Shown: one piece after another, positions 38,737 through 44,826 of the stretch
Position numbering within the stretch: the first letter of the stretch is position 1
How the letters are laid out: every line of letters begins with the position of its first letter
Origin: Bacilli bacterium
GTDB taxonomy: Bacteria; Bacillota_I; Bacilli_A; RF39; UBA660
Direction of reading: 5' to 3'
DNA: 64,000 nt
Assembly: GCA_017398945.1 (NCBI GenBank)
Contig: JAFQES010000014.1
Location: 2,394 to 66,393, forward strand
Made by a program: the position numbers and the translations under genes
Notes under the pieces: model-generated
What the model was told of the DNA's origin: nothing
The model's input: only the letters and a program-made list of their open reading frames with translations
Database searches by the model: none

Positions 38737-38776
38737 TATAGACGTGTTAAAATAGATTAATGAAAGGAAACTTTTT

Positions 38777-39863
38777 ATGAACAAAGATAATTTAATTATT
38801 GAATTAGAAAATTATAAACAAAGAATTGAAGAATTAGGGAGGTCTCTTTGACTTATCCTCAAAATTAAAAGAAGTAGAAAGTTTAGAGTTAGAAGTTAAT
38901 AAAGATGATTTTTGGCAAGATATAACTAATGCTAACAGTATTAATAAAAGATTGGCAAACTTAAAAAAGGAAATCAATGATTATAATATTATTAGAAGTC
39001 AAGTGTTGGATGGTTTAGAATTGTTACAATCTAGTGATGATGAAGAGTTAATAGCTATAGTTATTGATGAAATGAATAGTTGGAAAGAAAGATTAGAAGA
39101 TTTAGAAAATTTAGCTTTTTTGAGTGGAGAGTTTGATTTATCTAATTGTTATTTAGAAATCCATCCAGGAGCTGGAGGTACAGAATCTTGTGATTGGGCT
39201 GCGATGTTGTATCGGATGTATACAAGATTTGCCGAAAAATATGGTTATGATTATGAAGTTGTTGATGAATTAAAAGGTGAAGAAGCAGGTATTAAAAGTG
39301 TTACTTTAAAAATAATTGGTGATAAAGCCTATGGCTATTTAAAACGCGAAAATGGTGTTCATCGCCTTGTAAGAATATCTCCATTTGATTCCAATAAAAG
39401 AAGACACACCTCATTTGCTTCTGTAACTGTAATCCCTGAAATTAATAAAGATATCAACATAGAAGTTAAAGAAACTGATATAAAAATAGATGTTTATCAT
39501 AGTAGTGGAGCGGGAGGACAATCAGTAAATACATCTAATTCAGCGGTAAGAATTACCCATTTGCCTACGAAAACAGTTGTTACCTGTCAAAATGAACGTA
39601 GTCAATTAAAGAATAAAGAACAAGCTATGAAACTTTTGAAAAATAAATTATATTTGTTAGAGTTAGAAAAACAAAATAGTGAGATTAATTCTTTAAAAGA
39701 TAATAGTGTTAGTATCAATTTTGGCAGTCAAATAAGAAGTTATGTTTTAGAACCATATAAATTGGTAAAAGACAATCGTAATAATTATGAAGATACTGAT
39801 CCAGAAAAGATATTAGATGGTGAAATATTAGAACTTATCAAATCTTTGTTGAAAGTTAAATAA
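38777..39863 (+). CDS. prfB: Peptide chain release factor 2 with programmed +1 frameshift
   Basis: ATG 38777..AGGGAGG-TCT-CTT-TGA-C at 38846-38852; SPF and GGQ motifs. Confidence 0.97.
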
Positions 39864-39895: not shown

Positions 39896-41215
39896 ATGCA
39901 AAGTTGTAAGAAAATAATATTAGAAAATGTAAAAAAGGGATCAACTGTAATTGTATCTTGTTCGGGTGGTCCTGATTCAATGTGTTTGTTAAAAAATGTT
40001 ATCGATTTAAAAGATAAATTAGATTTAAAAATTATTGTTGGACATATTAATCATAATGTAAGAGAAGAGTCATTAGAAGAAGAGCTTTTTGTTAAAGATT
40101 ATGTTTTAAAAAATAATTTAATTTTTGAGAGCATGACTATCAAAAAATATACGAAGGAAAACTTCCATAATGAAGCTAGAATTATACGTTATGATTTTAT
40201 GAAAGATTTGATTAAAAAATATCAAGCTAGCTATTTGTTTACAGCTCATCATGGTGATGATTTAATGGAAACTATTTTGATGAGAATTGCTAGAGGAAGT
40301 AATTTAAAAGGATATGCCGGATTTAGAATGGTAATGCCTCAAGACAGATACGTTGTAATTCGTCCTTTGATATTAACTACTAAAGAAGAAATTATCAAAT
40401 ATAATAATGAAAATGGTATTTTGTTTGCTATTGATAAAACTAATGCTAGTGATGATTATACAAGAAATCGTTATCGTAATCATGTGTTACCTTTTTTAAA
40501 AGCCGAAAATAGTGATATTCATTTAAAATATTGGCTATATAGTGAAAGGTTAAATGAAAATAACGAATTTGTCGAAAAATATGTTCAAAATATTGAACAA
40601 AAAATAATTGTGGATAACAAGTTAATAATTAAAGGTTTTAGAAATTTGGAGCCACTAATTCAAAAAAGAATTATCGAAAATATGCTCTATAAAATTTATT
40701 TAGATGATTTATATACAATTGGTTTAAAACATGTTAGTATAATAATTGAGTTTATTTTAAAAAATAAAAATGGATCTTTAAATTTACCTGGTAATTATAT
40801 GGCGGTGTGTGAGTATGGCTATTTTTATATCAAAGTATTTAAAGAAAATAAAGAATATTGCTATGAAATAGAAAATGTTGTATATTTACCAAATAATTAT
40901 AAATTAAGTTTAACTAATGAAGTTGGTAATAGCAATTATTATTTAAAATTAAATTCTAAAGAAGTTAAACTTCCCTTATATGTGCGTAATAAAAAAGAGG
41001 GCGATAAAATAGAGGTAAAACATTTAAATGGAACTCAAAAAGTAAAGAAAATTTTTATTGATTATAAGATTAATAAAGATAATAGAGTTAGTTGGCCAAT
41101 TGTAGTTGACAGTAGTGATACGCTTTTATGGGTTCCAGGACTTAAAAAGTCAAAATTTGATAAAGAAAATAATGAAATATATGATATAATAATAAAGTAC
41201 GAGGAGGAAAAATAA
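39896..41215 (+). CDS. tilS: tRNA(Ile)-lysidine synthase
   Basis: [26 protein letters not shown]. Confidence 0.95.
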
Positions 41216-43185
41216 TGAATAACAAAAATCAAGGATATTTAAAAAATTCATTTCCATATTTAATATTAATGTTCATAGTTGTAGGAACTTTACTATTATT
41301 AAATTTATCTGGAAATAAAGTTAATGAATTATCAACAGGTGATTTATTAAAAGAAATAAAAAATCAAACTGTTACAGAAATTACTGTAACACCAAAAAGT
41401 AGCGAAAGTGTTTATTATATTGAAGGTAAGTTAAAAGATTATAAAGAAAATGAATCTTTTAAAACTAAAGTTGTTGAAGCTGAACTTAATTCAATTATAG
41501 AATATGCTGATGCTAATGAATTAAAAGTATATGAAACAGAAAGTGATCCAGGAAGTAGTGCGTTTTTATATATTTTAGTTAATGTATTACCATTTGTTTT
41601 AATGATTGTAGCTTGCTATTTCTTTTTGGCCAAGATTTCAAATACTAATAAAGGTAGTATGGATTTTGGAAGAAGTAGAGCTAAGCTTAGTGATGGTAAT
41701 TTTAAAGTTAAATTTAAAGATGTTGCTGGATTGAAAGAAGAAAAAGAAGAAGTTGCAGAACTTATTGATTTCTTAAAAAGCCCAAAGAAATTTCAAAAGT
41801 TGGGTGCTAGAATTCCAAAGGGAGTTTTATTAGTAGGACCTCCAGGAACGGGTAAAACATTACTTGCTAAGGCTGTTGCTGGAGAAGCTAATGTACCTTT
41901 CTTCTATATCAGTGGTTCTGATTTTGTTGAATTATTTGTTGGTGTAGGAGCAAGCCGTGTACGTGATATGTTCAAAGAAGCTAAAAGAAACGCACCTTGT
42001 CTAATTTTTATCGATGAAATTGATGCTGTAGGACGTCAAAGAGGTACTGGTTTAGGCGGAGGGCACGATGAACGTGAACAAACATTAAATCAGTTATTAA
42101 CAGAAATGGATGGATTTGGAGCTAATGAAGGTATTATAATTATTGCTGCGACAAATAGACCTGATGTATTAGATCCAGCTTTACTTCGTCCAGGAAGATT
42201 CGATCGTCAAGTTACAGTTAGTCTTCCGGATTCGAAAGAAAGAGAAGCAATTTTAAAAGTTCATGCTAGAAATAAAGTTTTAGCTAAAGAAGTAAACTTA
42301 ACTAATGTTAGTAAACGTACTCCAGGATTTAGTGGAGCAGATTTAGAAAACTTATTGAATGAAGCTGCCTTACTAGCTGTAAGAAGAAATAAAGAGGCTA
42401 TTTCAATTGATGAAATTGATGAAGCTACTGATAGGGTATTAATGGGACCTGCTAAAACTAGTCGTAAGATTACCGAAAAGGAAAAACGTTTAGTTAGTAT
42501 TCATGAAGCAGGCCATGCTGTAATTGGATTAAAATTAGAGCACGCTAATGAAGTTCATAAAATAACTATCATTCCTCGCGGAGTTGCTGGTGGTTATACA
42601 ATGATGTTACCTAAAGAAGAAAAAATAGGTATTATGACTAAGAATGAATTAGAAGCAGCTATAGTAGGTTTATTAGGTGGCCGTGTAAGTGAAGAATTAT
42701 TTTTAAAGGAACTTACTACAGGTGCATCAGATGACTTTAAACGAGCTACAAATATAGCTAGAAGTATGGTTACAGAATATGGTATGAGTGATTTAGGGCC
42801 AATGCAATATGAACAAAAAAGTGAAGGAGTATTCTTAGGTAGAGATTATGCTAAGAGTAAAAATTTCTCTGATCATGTAGCTCATGAAATTGATCAACAA
42901 ACTCGTAAAATTATTGAAGATTGTTATGCTAAAGCTAAAAAGATAATTAAAGAAAATGAGGATTTGGTTAAATTGTTAAGTGATTCTTTAATGGAAAATG
43001 AGACTTTAACAAAAGAACAAATTGAATGCTTAGTTAAAACGGGAAAAATAACAGAAGATATTGATGATGTTGATTTAAAGGATTTAAGAAGTAAAGCAAA
43101 AGAATTAAAGATTAAAGGTTATACTAAAATGTCTAAAGAAGAACTTGATGCTGAAATAACTAATTTAGAAGAAAAAGGTGAATAG
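41215..43185 (+). CDS. ftsH: ATP-dependent Zn metalloprotease FtsH with C-terminal Rho_N-like extension
   Basis: [20 protein letters not shown]; tail [24 protein letters not shown]. Confidence 0.97.
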
Positions 43186-43213: not shown

Positions 43214-43237
43214 AAAAAAAATAGCCTTTTGGCTATT
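43214..43237 (-). terminator. Terminator of the WXG100 operon
   Basis: AATAGCC-tttt-GGCTATT with an A-run on its left (U-tail on the minus strand). Confidence 0.75.
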
Positions 43238-43619
43238 AATTTTGTCCATCTAAAATGGCTTTAACACTTTTACAATAATCAGCTAATAGTTTATCAATGC
43301 ATTCTTCTTCTAAGGAAGATAAAGTACCTTCTTTTAGATCAATTCCCTTTTGTTTAGCTGATATTTCAATGCTACCGCCTGATGCTTTATAATAATCTTT
43401 TACCATGCATTGTAATAATTTAATATGTGTTCTTGTTAAAACTCCTGGCTCTTCTGTTTGGTCAACGTTTTTTAATATTTCTTCAGTAGAAGGCATTTTT
43501 AATTTTGCTAAATAATCATTTATCATTCTTTGTAACATATAATTAGTTTGTTTATCATTGGTCATTGTAGCAATTTTTTCAAAAGTTTCATCACTATTTA
43601 ATATATTGTCAGTTCCCAT
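43236..43619 (-). CDS. Small acidic helical hypothetical protein (candidate immunity/chaperone)
   Basis: AAGGAG RBS; last gene of the WXG100 operon. Confidence 0.65.
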   Translation of the reverse strand: MGTDNILNSDETFEKIATMTNDKQTNYMLQRMINDYLAKLKMPSTEEILKNVDQTEEPGVLTRTHIKLLQCMVKDYYKASGGSIEISAKQKGIDLKEGTLSSLEEECIDKLLADYCKSVKAILDGQN

Positions 43620-43639: not shown

Positions 43640-44353
43640 TTAACTATTTAAGAATCCTGCTAGTTCTGAAAGTCCATTACCAAAAGCGTTAAAAATTGTA
43701 CTTATTGTTGTACTTGAACTATTATCACCAGCATATCCAAATAACGTTTTAATAGTACCTACAGCTTGGTTAGTAACATCAGCACCGATTTCTGATAGGT
43801 TTTTTCCTGTTGTACTTTTTATATATGTTCCAGTATTTCCAAACATTTTTGCAGTTTCGCCAACTATGGTTCTTGTTGCTCCAGAAATATTTAGTGCTGA
43901 AGATTTTATATCATTTATATAACTTGAAGTGTCATATGATCCTTGTTTAGCTTGTGAATTAACTCCTTCATTGATTTGTGTTACAACTCCTTTTACTGTT
44001 GCTCCCCATGCTGTAATTTCTTGATTCATTTGGCTATCAGCTGAAAGGAATGCTTGTGCGACATTTATCAGGAATCCTCCTAAGTTTGTAATGCTTGTTT
44101 GATATTTTTCTAAATATCCTTTAATATCGTCCATGCCTGTTATTAAAGCAGTACCGGCTTCGCTATCAAATCCGGCATTATTATGAAGGTCTTTAACGGT
44201 GTTATATATTATAGTTAGAGAATCCATAATAGCATTAGCGATTACTTTTGTATTTTCTCCTAATTGCTCCATAGCTGCAGTATCAACTAAAGTGCCATCA
44301 CCAGCAGCTTCAGCTAATAATTGGATGTTTAATTTTAATAAATTTTCTTTCAT
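43640..44353 (-). CDS. WXG100-like domain protein with N-terminal LKLNIQLLA leader and amphipathic G/A/S/T-rich C-terminal extension
   Basis: VDTAAMEQLG...helix-GFDSEAG-helix...FL..VAQAFLSAD (Y/FxxxD signal). Confidence 0.65.
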   Translation of the reverse strand: MKENLLKLNIQLLAEAAGDGTLVDTAAMEQLGENTKVIANAIMDSLTIIYNTVKDLHNNAGFDSEAGTALITGMDDIKGYLEKYQTSITNLGGFLINVAQAFLSADSQMNQEITAWGATVKGVVTQINEGVNSQAKQGSYDTSSYINDIKSSALNISGATRTIVGETAKMFGNTGTYIKSTTGKNLSEIGADVTNQAVGTIKTLFGYAGDNSSSTTISTIFNAFGNGLSELAGFLNS

Positions 44354-44646
44354 TATAAATTACCTCCGTTTTGAGCTGCGTTTTGACTGTTAGTATCAAT
44401 ACTATTAGCACATTTGTCTAGAATATTTGCTAAATTATCCATTTGTTCAACTAATTTAGCTACATTTAATTTTTTTTCTTCAACTTTTTGAATATATTTG
44501 CTGGTAGAGCTATCTTTCCAAGAAGATTGAACATTAGTACAAAGTTCATTCAGCTTTGTTATATTACCATTAATATTTGCTATTTCGGTTCTAATAGTAC
44601 TAGCAGCACTTCTTATTTTTGAACTGTTATATTTTAAAGTTGCCAT
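44353..44646 (-). CDS. WXG100/ESAT-6 family protein (WxD variant)
   Basis: 97 aa; LKYNSSKIRSAASTI..central SSWKD..LANILDKCAN. Confidence 0.75.
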   Translation of the reverse strand: MATLKYNSSKIRSAASTIRTEIANINGNITKLNELCTNVQSSWKDSSTSKYIQKVEEKKLNVAKLVEQMDNLANILDKCANSIDTNSQNAAQNGGNL

Positions 44647-44826
44647 TTTTCATTTTCCCTTCTACTATTATATTCATATGTATAATAACATTTTGGTAAC
44701 TATTTAGCAATATTTTTTGAATTAAAAATTTAAAAAACTAAAAAAGTAAAAATTAGTAAAGACAAAACATTTTTATTATGTTAAAATAATTTTGACATTA
44801 GATTGAGTAATAAGAGGTGGCTATAT

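What the first reader, a model, noticed from the sequence alone, without database searches (positions are those of the whole stretch)
44300..44353. Prp-protease-like cleavage leader (LKLNIQLL|AE) on a WXG100-like secretion substrate
Seen: the 237-aa protein begins MKENLLKLNIQLLAEAAGDG, ahead of the WXG100-like fold. Established: Firmicute ribosomal protein L27 carries the extension MLKLNLQFF|A removed by the cysteine protease Prp, and some staphylococcal phage capsid and scaffold proteins use the same motif (KLKLNLQHF|A). I know of no T7SS substrate described with this leader. Inference: the ribosomal-protein protease of the producer or the target cell could act as a maturation or activation switch for secretion, assembly or toxicity. 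Caveat: P1 is Leu here rather than the usual Phe.
Basis: partly seen in the sequence, partly recalled or inferred. Interest (0 to 1): 0.78.

Follow-up and report, generated by a model that had tools for sequence, protein, structure and literature searches.

The report
Ribosomal-protease leader on a secreted WXG100-like protein
A fast-evolving secretion-type protein of an uncultured gut bacterium begins with a conserved copy of the short leader that a dedicated protease normally trims from ribosomal protein L27, which suggests that this protease also matures a secretion substrate.

Summary
The 237-aa ORF (43640..44353, minus strand) starts MKENLLKLNIQLLA|EAAGDG. It has a GGAGGT ribosome-binding site 8 nt upstream, and its start overlaps the stop of a 97-aa WXG100 gene by 1 nt.

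This genome's own L27 starts MKFMILNIQLF|AHKK and sits next to a prp gene with the catalytic His, Asp and Cys. Among 1853 ORFs, only L27 and this protein carry the motif at the N-terminus (about 0.0004 expected for the exact motif).

The leader is the most conserved 8-residue stretch of a rapidly diverging family: 30 of 33 members have it, and 26 of those 30 have the canonical Phe at P1. The family lies in one conserved three-gene cassette between ftsH and parA. Its N-terminal half is WXG100-like, and the genome encodes EssC.

My best reading is a Prp-cleaved propeptide on a T7SSb-type substrate. Cleavage itself is untested. This copy has Leu rather than Phe at P1. What the cleavage achieves is inference only.

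I found no paper linking Prp to type VII secretion. I rate it a new variant of a known kind, of moderate to high interest.

In passing: ribosomal protein bL32 in related genomes carries the same leader.

The parts
44315..44353 (-). Leader, residues 1-13 (MKENLLKLNIQLL). The predicted Prp cut lies between Leu13 (44317..44315) and Ala14 (44314..44312).
   Evidence: Matches own L27 MILNIQLF|A. It is the most conserved 8-residue window of the family. The motif is present in 30 of 33 members.
43640..44353 (-). Whole 237-aa ORF including the stop codon: leader, WXG100-like hairpin, then a Gly/Ser/Thr-rich C-terminal region.
   Evidence: Homologues. Family alignment A2.
44033..44287 (-). WXG100-like helical hairpin domain, residues 23-107.
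   Evidence: Pfam WXG100 at 24.8 bits, below the 27.3 cut-off. Two homologues score over the cut-off. The family profile hits ordinary WXG100 proteins of about 100 aa, including the one beside this genome's EssC at E = 1.6e-9. The AF2 model has helices at 25-59 and 65-102 with pLDDT about 60-69.
43643..43996 (-). C-terminal region, residues 120-237. It is helical and rich in Gly, Ser and Thr, and carries the conserved motif S..TR.IV.E...M..NTG...KS.TGK....GT.KTLF. Function unknown.
   Evidence: Invariant W116, S157 and G183 in A2. Composition is G, T and S at 13% each, and the maximum 19-residue hydropathy is 1.16, so no transmembrane segment.
44362..44367 (-). Shine-Dalgarno GGAGGT, 8 nt upstream of the ATG, lying inside the last codons of the upstream gene.
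   Evidence: Read.
44353..44646 (-). 97-aa WXG100 partner gene. Its stop overlaps the leader gene's start by 1 nt (TAATG).
   Evidence: Pfam WXG100 at 38.6 bits, over the 27.3 cut-off. The same 1-nt overlap occurs in 6 of 8 loci examined, by the ORF coordinates.
43236..43619 (-). 127-aa conserved third gene of the cassette. No known family. Candidate T7SS accessory or chaperone protein.
   Evidence: No Pfam, NCBIfam or PHROG hit. It is 72-94% identical across loci in which the leader protein is only 29-52% identical. A distant homologue (26% identity, E = 1.3e-5) lies directly beside EssC in another genus.
44682..44710 (-). Promoter-like site (TTGCTA, 17 nt, TATTAT, with TG) upstream of the WXG100 gene.
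   Evidence: This is a consensus match only; the region gave 19 such sites against 10.6 expected.
43220..43237 (.). Bidirectional terminator-like hairpin between the 3' end of the cassette and the 3' end of ftsH.
   Evidence: 2 sites found against 0.6 expected, the same hairpin read on both strands.

Best explanation
The 237-aa protein is the larger member of a translationally coupled WXG100-type pair, a substrate class of the Firmicute type VII secretion system (T7SSb). It is made as a pro-protein.

Its first 13 residues end in KLNIQLL|A, which copies the site at which the cytoplasmic cysteine protease Prp trims this organism's ribosomal protein L27 (ILNIQLF|A). Prp is encoded in the rplU-prp-rpmA operon. 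I propose that it removes the leader in the producer's cytoplasm, leaving a mature protein that starts AEAAGDG just ahead of helix 1 of the WXG100 hairpin.

By analogy with L27 and with phage capsid and scaffold proteins, the leader would hold the protein in an immature state until cleavage. Candidate effects are on pairing with the 97-aa partner, on recognition by EssC, or on activity of the C-terminal region.

Shown here: the motif, its position, its lineage-specific match to L27, its conservation, an intact prp gene, the WXG100 homology, the gene pairing, and EssC.

Inferred: cleavage itself, the compartment where it happens, secretion, and any gating role.
For: 1. Motif match. Own L27 is MKFMILNIQLFAHKK and prp lies immediately upstream of it. 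The protein has LNIQLLA at residues 8-14. These are the only two N-terminal matches among 1853 ORFs, against 0.0004 expected for the exact motif.

2. Same pattern in relatives. In four other genomes of the genus, a DNA pattern for the motif matched 7 places: 4 L27 genes, 2 family genes and 1 antisense chance site. The reversed control pattern matched 0.

3. Intact protease. Own Prp aligns with S. aureus Prp (4PEO/7KLD, E = 8.5e-11) with GHA and DIVCA conserved. G15, H16, D25 and C28 are invariant in 37 Prps of related genomes.

4. Family conservation. Of 33 unique members, 30 have a leader (21 match the strict motif). P3 is Gln in 28 of 30, P1 is Phe in 26 and Leu in 4, and P1' is Ala in 21, Ser in 5 and other in 4. 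These are the positions that passages of PMC9261936 and PMC12324487 name as decisive: P1-P3 buried, P3 essential, P1' small.

5. Selection on the peptide. Residues 7-14 form the most conserved 8-residue window of the family, at 0.73 against a mean of 0.41 elsewhere. Pairwise codon differences in the 7-codon core are 54 synonymous to 52 non-synonymous, against 17 to 167 in the next 7 codons (8 related loci, not independent). So the peptide is under selection, not a DNA or RNA element.

6. Lineage-specific version. The leader uses Ile at P4 and Leu at P2, as this genus's L27 does.

7. T7SS link. WXG100 hits appear. The A2 profile finds ordinary WXG100 proteins in 25 other genomes, and this genome's own WXG100 genes, including the one beside EssC. 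The partner gene is coupled. EssC scores 1081.7 bits against a cut-off of 778.4. A distant relative of the third gene sits beside EssC in another genus.

8. Complex prediction, Prp dimer plus residues 1-60: weak support.
- Score 0.37; best of 3 controls 0.01.
- The mark was reached by 58 of 80 solved complexes and 2 of 110 mismatched pairs.
- At 0.60 or under, it was reached by only 7 of those 80 and by both mismatches that passed.
- The runs agree in at least 45% of contacts, and the partner's pLDDT is at least 41.
- A like complex (S. aureus Prp with peptide, 7KLD) is solved, so this pass may come from the model's memory.
Against: - No cleavage, expression or secretion data exist for this protein.
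- This copy has Leu, not Phe, at P1. In pneumococcal L27, F12A at P1 abolished both binding and cleavage (PMC12324487, passage). Phe-to-Leu was not tested in the passages I read.
- Every L27 in the genus keeps Phe.
- Prps can be narrowly specific: C. difficile Prp did not cut an S. aureus-type substrate (PMC9261936, passage).
- Three of 33 family members lack the leader. No DNA was available to check their gene starts.
- Of the canonical T7SSb apparatus, only EssC was detected. YukC, EssB, EsaA N-terminal and YukD models gave no hit at E <= 0.1 in a 95%-complete genome.
- The WXG100 score of this copy is below Pfam's cut-off, and the turn has no W-x-G (and the sequence).
- None of the ordinary WXG100 genes in the 29 loci examined has a leader, so the leader is not a general T7SS feature.
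- The complex prediction gives only weak support.
Confidence: 0.6

Rival explanations
1. The leader is ancestral to the family and is cleaved in the Phe-type members. In this particular copy and its closest relatives, which have Leu at P1, it is no longer cut or is cut only slowly. The protein would then keep its N-terminal extension, or act as a slow substrate or competitor of Prp.
For: P1 is Leu in 4 of 30 leader-bearing members, all within the long-leader clade P0001, P0002, P0006 and P0007. L27 of the same genomes keeps Phe. F12A at P1 abolishes binding in pneumococcus (PMC12324487, passage). P1 is Phe in the published L27 motif (PMC9405229, passage).
Against: In the Leu-type copies the rest of the leader (K-L-N-I-Q-L and the small P1') remains fully conserved. 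G000 and G002 differ by 4 synonymous and 0 non-synonymous changes in the 7-codon core. That argues for continued function. Leu is a conservative replacement for Phe in a hydrophobic pocket, unlike Ala.
Confidence: 0.2
2. The conserved N-terminal peptide is not a Prp site. It would be a different signal, for example for a chaperone, for the 127-aa protein, for EssC, or for co-translational pairing, that merely resembles the L27 leader.
For: Cleavage is untested. The leader is hydrophobic and could bind a partner. T7SS substrates use short linear signals.
Against: The resemblance is position by position (P6 Leu, P5 Asn/Asp, P4 Ile, P3 Gln, P1 Phe, small P1'). It sits at the same distance from the N-terminus as in L27 (8-13 residues removed). 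It follows the lineage's own L27 variant. The same leader stands on bL32 and on prophage capsid and tape-measure proteins, and on a candidate scaffold gene, in related genomes. None of the ordinary WXG100 genes in the 29 loci examined has it.
Confidence: 0.1
3. The protein is a domesticated phage structural protein, scaffold-like or tape-measure-like, that kept its Prp leader. It would have nothing to do with type VII secretion.
For: In related genomes the leader followed by an acidic residue occurs on prophage capsid and tape-measure proteins and on a candidate scaffold gene. The family profile gives a weak hit to a tape-measure protein, 28.9 bits in a set of 80. P0016 has a weak PHROG tape-measure hit at E = 0.007.
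Against: The tape-measure alignment is carried mainly by the leader: a leader alone scores 12.6 bits, and the first domain scores 19.9. PHROGs gives no hit for the window protein. All 8 loci examined have no phage genes and share one chromosomal site, ftsH | 127-aa gene | leader gene | WXG100 gene | parA. WXG100 homology is seen by Pfam and by profile.
Confidence: 0.06
4. Chance resemblance or a wrongly called start: the real protein begins downstream and the leader is not translated.
For: AT-rich genomes give many Leu/Asn/Ile-rich peptides. An in-frame Met28 exists.
Against: The chance expectation is 0.0004. A strong ribosome-binding site and a stop/start overlap mark the first ATG. The leader is conserved at protein level across homologues of 29-60% identity, with synonymous changes. 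Met28 is not conserved.
Confidence: 0.02

Closest known systems
Pre-L27 and the Prp protease of Firmicutes (S. aureus, S. pneumoniae)
   Same: An N-terminal extension of 8-13 residues ends in L-N-[IL]-Q-x-F|A. A prp gene with the catalytic His and Cys lies in the rplU-prp-rpmA operon of the same genome. The published motif is MLxx(D/N)LQ(F/L)F'A(S/H)KK (PMC9405229, passage).
   Different: The carrier is not a ribosomal protein but a WXG100-like secretion-type protein. P1 is Leu in this copy. The residues after the cut are acidic (AEAAGDG) rather than basic (AHKK).
Host-Prp-cleaved capsid and scaffold proteins of staphylococcal phage 80alpha (gp46, gp47)
   Same: A non-ribosomal protein borrows the host's L27 leader so that host Prp processes it (PMC9261936, passages; PMC5744158, abstract only). 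In relatives of this genome the same leader, followed by Asp or Glu, stands on prophage capsid and tape-measure proteins and on a candidate scaffold gene.
   Different: There is no phage context here. The gene sits at a fixed chromosomal site in every genome of the genus examined.
WXG100 (EsxA/EsxB-type) pairs and LXG-type effectors of T7SSb
   Same: A helical-hairpin domain homologous to WXG100, a small WXG100 partner gene immediately upstream and translationally coupled, EssC in the genome, and rapid divergence of the pair against conserved flanks.
   Different: The protein is 237 aa, not about 100. There is no W-x-G in the turn, no Pfam LXG hit and no recognisable toxin domain. The N-terminal propeptide is not found in the ordinary WXG100 genes of the 29 loci examined. 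My searches found no paper describing it for T7SS substrates.
FlhB N-terminus as a proposed Prp substrate
   Same: It is another export-related protein in which an L27-like N-terminal motif was noted by bioinformatics (PMC9405229, passages).
   Different: FlhB is a component of the flagellar export gate, not a secreted substrate. Its cleavage is also unproven.

Membership tests
Prp substrates (L27-type N-terminal propeptide) | Motif L-(N/D)-(I/L)-Q-x-F followed by a small residue, within about the first 15 residues | tested here: inconclusive
   LNIQLL|A lies at residues 8-14. All positions fit except P1, which is Leu instead of Phe. 26 of 30 leader-bearing family members have Phe.
Prp substrates (L27-type N-terminal propeptide) | A functional prp gene in the same genome | tested here: met
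   PF04327 scores 63.4 bits against a cut-off of 27. The gene lies between rplU and rpmA. The His, Asp and Cys align with those of S. aureus Prp and are invariant in 37 relatives.
Prp substrates (L27-type N-terminal propeptide) | The motif matches the host's own L27 variant (Prp and L27 co-evolve) | tested here: met
   L27 of the five genus genomes is [IN]LNIQLFA, and the family consensus is KLNIQLFA.
Prp substrates (L27-type N-terminal propeptide) | Demonstrated cleavage at F|A by Prp | not testable with these tools
   Only a complex prediction with weak support is available: 0.37 against a best control of 0.01.
WXG100 family (PF06013) | Profile match over the curated cut-off | tested here: inconclusive
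   This copy scores 24.8 bits, under the 27.3 cut-off. Of 10 homologues scanned, 2 are over the cut-off, 2 below it and 6 have no hit. The partner gene scores 38.6 bits. The family profile finds WXG100 proteins at E down to about 1e-9.
WXG100 family (PF06013) | About 100 residues with a W-x-G turn between two helices | tested here: not met
   The protein is 237 aa. The turn reads NNAGFDSEAG with no Trp. The invariant Trp is at position 116, after helix 2.
WXG100 family (PF06013) | Paired genes and a T7SS ATPase (EssC/EccC) in the genome | tested here: met
   A coupled partner gene is present. EssC scores 1081.7 bits against a cut-off of 778.4.
Canonical T7SSb apparatus | EssB/YukC, EsaA, and EsaB/YukD alongside EssC | tested here: not met
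   PF10140, TIGR03926, TIGR03929 and PF08817 give no hit at E <= 0.1 in a 95%-complete genome. The 83-aa ORF after essC has no Pfam hit. Divergent components cannot be excluded.
LXG polymorphic toxins | An N-terminal LXG domain plus a C-terminal toxin domain and a cognate immunity gene | tested here: not met
   No LXG or toxin family appears among the Pfam or NCBIfam hits. No longer fused forms were found, which is weak evidence. The downstream 127-aa gene is far more conserved than the putative effector, which is unlike an allele-specific immunity gene.
Phage scaffold, capsid or tape-measure proteins with a Prp leader | Homology to a phage structural family, and a prophage context | tested here: not met
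   PHROGs gives no hit. There are no phage genes in the 8 loci. The tape-measure hit is carried mainly by the leader.

The most novel reading that the evidence does not exclude
In this lineage of small-genome gut Bacilli, the L27 leader is a portable tag meaning 'cut me with Prp', and several unrelated proteins that join large assemblies or machines have acquired it. These are L27, bL32, prophage capsid and tape-measure proteins (and a candidate scaffold protein), and a hypervariable T7SS substrate.

On the T7SS substrate it would act as a true propeptide. It would keep the WXG100-type protein from pairing with its partner or from being recognised by EssC until the essential ribosomal protease removes it. 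Export of a fast-evolving secreted factor would then be tied to the state of the cell's ribosome-maturation machinery.
Probability: 0.3. Interest if true: 0.8.

Novelty: new variant of a known kind. Interest (0 to 1): 0.62.

Why it matters
L27 and a few staphylococcal phage proteins are the only shown substrates of Prp. Passages of a 2025 preprint state that it is unknown whether Prp cleaves other substrates (PMC12324487).

A conserved, lineage-matched Prp leader on a secretion-type protein would widen the protease's cellular substrate range. It would also add proteolytic N-terminal maturation to the known biology of Firmicute type VII substrates.

The test material comes ready-made. Natural Phe and Leu variants at P1 exist, and three family members lack the leader.

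Prp has been proposed as an antibiotic target (PMC9405229), so additional cellular substrates bear on what its inhibition would do.

The side observation of the same leader on ribosomal protein bL32 points the same way and may be of equal interest.

Tried and rejected
Structure. An AlphaFold2 model from the 30-row alignment is all-helical but of low confidence (mean pLDDT 60.4, residues 1-21 under 50). A Foldseek search of the PDB with it gave no match at E <= 0.001. I draw nothing from its weak rows.

Wider relatives.
- A3 found no relative in genome contigs: 394 pattern matches, none confirmed.
- A3 found 3 loci in metagenome contigs.
- A search for longer fused forms found none among 6359 candidates, which the tool itself calls weak evidence.

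ESM Atlas. The best rows are unnamed clusters at 0.90 and 0.89. WXG100 and T7SS_signal clusters appear only at 0.83-0.85, which is lead level. There was no usable hit for the 127-aa protein.

Expression. No RNA holder was listed for the operon, so I did not lay reads.

Membrane-toxin idea for the C-terminal region. There is no hydrophobic segment (maximum 19-residue hydropathy 1.16) and no GxxxG, so I dropped it.

Immunity-protein idea for the 127-aa gene. It is much more conserved than the putative effector and has no membrane segment. I regard it as a candidate accessory protein or chaperone instead.

DNA-level borrowing of the leader from rpmA. The two leaders share no more than their codons imply.

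Supplementary files of the Prp papers could not be seen, and they might list further motif-bearing proteins.
Full report
WHAT IS THERE

On the minus strand, three closely spaced genes lie between ftsH (41215..43185, plus strand) and parA/soj (plus strand, from about 44803):
- a 97-aa ORF (44353..44646)
- the 237-aa ORF of the finding (43640..44353)
- a 127-aa ORF (43236..43619)

A promoter-like site (44710..44682) precedes the first gene. A hairpin followed by a T-run (43237..43220) follows the last gene (consensus matches only).

Reading, GGAGGT lies 8 nt before its ATG, and that ATG shares its A with the TAA stop of the 97-aa gene. This is a classic translationally coupled pair.

IS THE LEADER MORE THAN CHANCE?

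The window's genome has 1.21 Mb in 35 contigs and is 95% complete. It encodes L27 on contig C5 within an rplU-prp-rpmA operon. L27 begins MKFMILNIQLFAHKKG, so the host's own Prp site is ILNIQLF|A. The finding's protein has KLNIQLL|A, which is identical at P6 to P2 and at P1'.

A six-frame scan gave 8 matches to a loose motif. Only two sit at the start of long frames: L27 and this protein. Among 1853 ORFs of 60 aa or more, the expected number of N-terminal matches is 0.0004 for the exact motif and 0.06 for the loose one. Two were observed.

In four other genomes of the genus, a DNA pattern for the motif matched 7 places: 4 L27 genes, 2 family genes, and 1 site antisense to a repeat-protein gene. 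The reversed control pattern matched none.

THE PROTEASE

The prp ORF (97 aa) scores 63.4 bits on PF04327 against a cut-off of 27. It aligns with S. aureus Prp (4PEO/7KLD, E = 8.5e-11) with the GHA and DIVCA segments conserved. G15, H16, D25 and C28 are invariant in an alignment of 37 Prps from related genomes.

THE FAMILY AND ITS LEADER

A word-indexed search found 4 further near-length homologues at 62-88% identity. An exhaustive HMMER search of 1.84 billion representatives found 23 proteins at E <= 0.001, of which 12 were at E <= 1e-10.

With the genus and metagenome loci, the set holds 33 unique members of 199-262 aa. Of these:
- 21 carry the strict motif L[ND][ILV]Qx[FL][AGS] in the first 25 residues, and 30 carry a looser version.
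- 3 have none (P0009, P0025, P0026). Their gene starts could not be checked.
- Among the 30, P3 is Gln in 28; P1 is Phe in 26 and Leu in 4; P1' is Ala in 21, Ser in 5, Asn in 2, Thr in 1 and Gly in 1.
- 8 to 13 residues would be removed.

Most members simply begin MKLNIQLFA[DE].

In the 30-row alignment, residues 7-14 are the most conserved 8-residue window of the whole protein. The mean share of the commonest residue is 0.73, against 0.41 for the rest.

Across 8 loci, pairwise codon differences in the 7-codon core are 54 synonymous to 52 non-synonymous. In the next 7 codons they are 17 to 167 (the loci are related, so these are not independent counts).

- Motif not conserved in homologues: not met.
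- Translation starts at AAMEQ: not met. Met28 is Leu in 22 of 30 members.

Passages of the Prp literature name the same positions as decisive:
- P1-P3 are buried, P3 Gln is required, and size at P1' is limited (PMC9261936).
- F12A at P1 abolishes binding and cleavage in pneumococcus (PMC12324487).
- The published motif is MLxx(D/N)LQ(F/L)F'A(S/H)KK (PMC9405229).

IS IT A TYPE VII SUBSTRATE?

- Pfam WXG100 matches residues 23-107 at 24.8 bits, under the 27.3 cut-off. The upstream 97-aa protein scores 38.6 bits. NCBIfam's WXG100 model is below its cut-off for both.
- Of 10 homologues scanned, 2 exceed Pfam's cut-off, 2 are below it and 6 have no WXG100 hit.
- The family profile was searched in 399 scored genomes of the class. 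It matched 26 genomes, including the window's own. Outside the genus nearly all hits were frames of about 100 codons, matched over profile positions 11-106, which is the WXG100 part only. The WXG100 gene next to this genome's EssC matched at E = 1.6e-9.
- None of the WXG100 genes in those 29 loci has a leader, so the leader is specific to this family.
- The genome encodes EssC (1541 aa; 1081.7 bits on TIGR03928, cut-off 778.4), followed by an 83-aa ORF and two WXG100 genes. It holds 8 WXG100 matches in all.
- Against a canonical apparatus, models for YukC, EssB, the EsaA N-terminus and YukD found nothing at E <= 0.1.
- The AlphaFold2 model is of low confidence (pLDDT 60.4). It is all-helical, with a hairpin at 25-59 and 65-102 and a disordered 1-21. 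Foldseek found nothing significant.
- PHROGs has no hit for any of the three proteins.

LOCUS EVOLUTION

The cassette ftsH | 127-aa gene | leader gene | WXG100 gene | parA is present in all 5 genomes of the genus and in none of the 56 other relatives searched with the single protein. It appears in the same arrangement in 3 metagenome contigs that carry a distant subfamily.

Identity to the window's copies:

| Gene | Identity to the window's copy |
|---|---|
| FtsH C-terminus | 80-93% |
| ParA | 87-98% |
| 127-aa protein | 72-94% |
| Leader protein | 29-52% |
| WXG100 partner | 26-73% |

The pair is thus a hypervariable island at a fixed site, and the leader is its most constant part.

The 127-aa protein has no family. 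A distant homologue (26% identity, E = 1.3e-5) in another genus of the family lies between a 257-aa LXG-like protein and EssC. This ties the 127-aa protein to T7SS. Because it is conserved, I think an accessory or chaperone role is more likely than immunity.

The C-terminal half of the leader protein is rich in Gly, Ser and Thr. It has no hydrophobic segment, and its function is unknown.

WHERE ELSE THE LEADER OCCURS

Of the 80 loci returned:
- 61 are L27.
- 15 are ribosomal protein bL32 (MKLNIQLFA|VPFRK...). Two of these were confirmed by Pfam, with the L32 profile starting at residue 9.
- 4 are others.

Requiring an acidic residue after Ala left 5 stretches, all prophage genes:
- two tape-measure proteins
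- two capsid genes (one confirmed by Pfam, the other a truncated frame read by likeness)
- one gene I read as a scaffold by its position only (no significant Pfam hit)

This fits the known borrowing of the leader by phage 80alpha (PMC9261936, passages; PMC5744158, abstract only).

The weak hit of the family profile to a tape-measure protein is carried mainly by the leader.

HOW IT MOST LIKELY WORKS

Prp is cytoplasmic and is needed for L27 maturation, so the producer cell always holds the enzyme. The simplest reading is a propeptide that Prp removes in the producer, exposing Ala14 just ahead of helix 1.

By analogy with L27 and with phage capsid and scaffold proteins, where removal accompanies assembly, the leader may delay pairing with the co-translated partner, recognition by EssC, or activity. 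This last step is inference.

A complex prediction of a Prp dimer with residues 1-60 gave weak support:
- Score 0.37; best control 0.01.
- The mark was reached by 58 of 80 solved complexes and 2 of 110 mismatches.
- At 0.60 or under, it was reached by only 7 of those 80 and by both mismatches.
- Contacts agree in at least 45%, and the partner's pLDDT is at least 41.
- A like complex, 7KLD, is solved, so this pass may come from the model's memory.

The main weakness is Leu at P1 in this copy and its three nearest cluster relatives. I put cleavage of the Phe-type family members at about 0.8 and of this copy at about 0.6.

NOVELTY

Three full-text searches found no paper that links Prp or the L27 leader with type VII secretion: Prp + L27 + 'type VII secretion'; 'ribosomal-processing cysteine protease' + WXG100; and Prp + L27 + Esx. 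The third search returned 2 unrelated papers.

The 2022 review lists L27, the 80alpha proteins and, as a proposal, FlhB (passages). [quoted passage not shown] Supplements were closed, and most subscription papers are not in the library.

I rate this a new variant of a known kind: a known protease tag on a new class of carrier.

VERDICT

The mechanistic role is open. Interest 0.62.

Noticed in passing
L118:136-339 (-), L120:6506-6712 (+), and 13 more loci among L052-L131 (L060, L064, L065, L067, L074, L075, L076, L079, L090, L115, L122, L124, L131): In 15 of the 80 loci returned, ribosomal protein bL32 carries the same leader (MKLNIQLFA|VPFRKVSKT...). Cutting after Phe would give the usual mature AVPFR N-terminus. 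Pfam's L32 profile starts at residue 9 in the two I checked. The window's own L32 has no such leader (MKKMAVPFRR). A search for Prp + L27 + L32 + 'N-terminal extension' found no paper describing this.
   Followed up: partly
L116:1980-3845 (-), L172:2638-3180 (-), L123:2636-3655 (-), L173:1-349 (-), L174:2939-3802 (-): Prophage tape-measure proteins (Pfam TMP_3) carry the leader followed by Asp or Glu. So do a capsid protein (Pfam Phage_capsid_4), a truncated capsid-like frame in L173, and a gene I read as a scaffold by position only (no significant Pfam hit). In L173 a 309-aa ORF directly upstream of the capsid-like gene has a Prp-like N-terminus (GHAGY...DIVCAGAS), which suggests a phage-borne Prp. 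That was read by eye and not scanned.
   Followed up: partly
L184 (G012:C8:23060-26374): A T7SS effector locus in another genus of the family reads: WXG100 (95 aa), a 107-aa helical protein, a 257-aa LXG-like protein with a Ser-rich linker and a Gly-rich C-terminus, a 124-aa distant homologue of the window's 127-aa protein, then EssC. None of these has a Prp leader, and the motif pattern found nothing in that genome.
   Followed up: partly
G000 contig C25 (L003:829-6419): The apparent T7SS locus of this genome is minimal: EssC (1541 aa), an 83-aa ORF with no Pfam hit, and two WXG100 genes. EssB/YukC, EsaA and YukD models find nothing in the genome.
   Followed up: partly
G000 contigs C3 and C13 (L011:690-2719; L009:1480-3249): Two further WXG100-led effector-type loci are present. 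One has a 368-aa protein with a WXG100-like N-terminus and a Thr/Pro-rich linker. The other has a WXG100 pair followed by coiled-coil proteins. None has a leader.
   Followed up: no
window 38774-39863 (+): prfB (release factor 2) shows the classic programmed +1 frameshift site CTT TGA C at 38846. The short upstream frame reads MNKDNLIIELENYKQRIEELGRSL*, and the main frame continues DLSSKLKEVE... This is ordinary and well known.
   Followed up: yes
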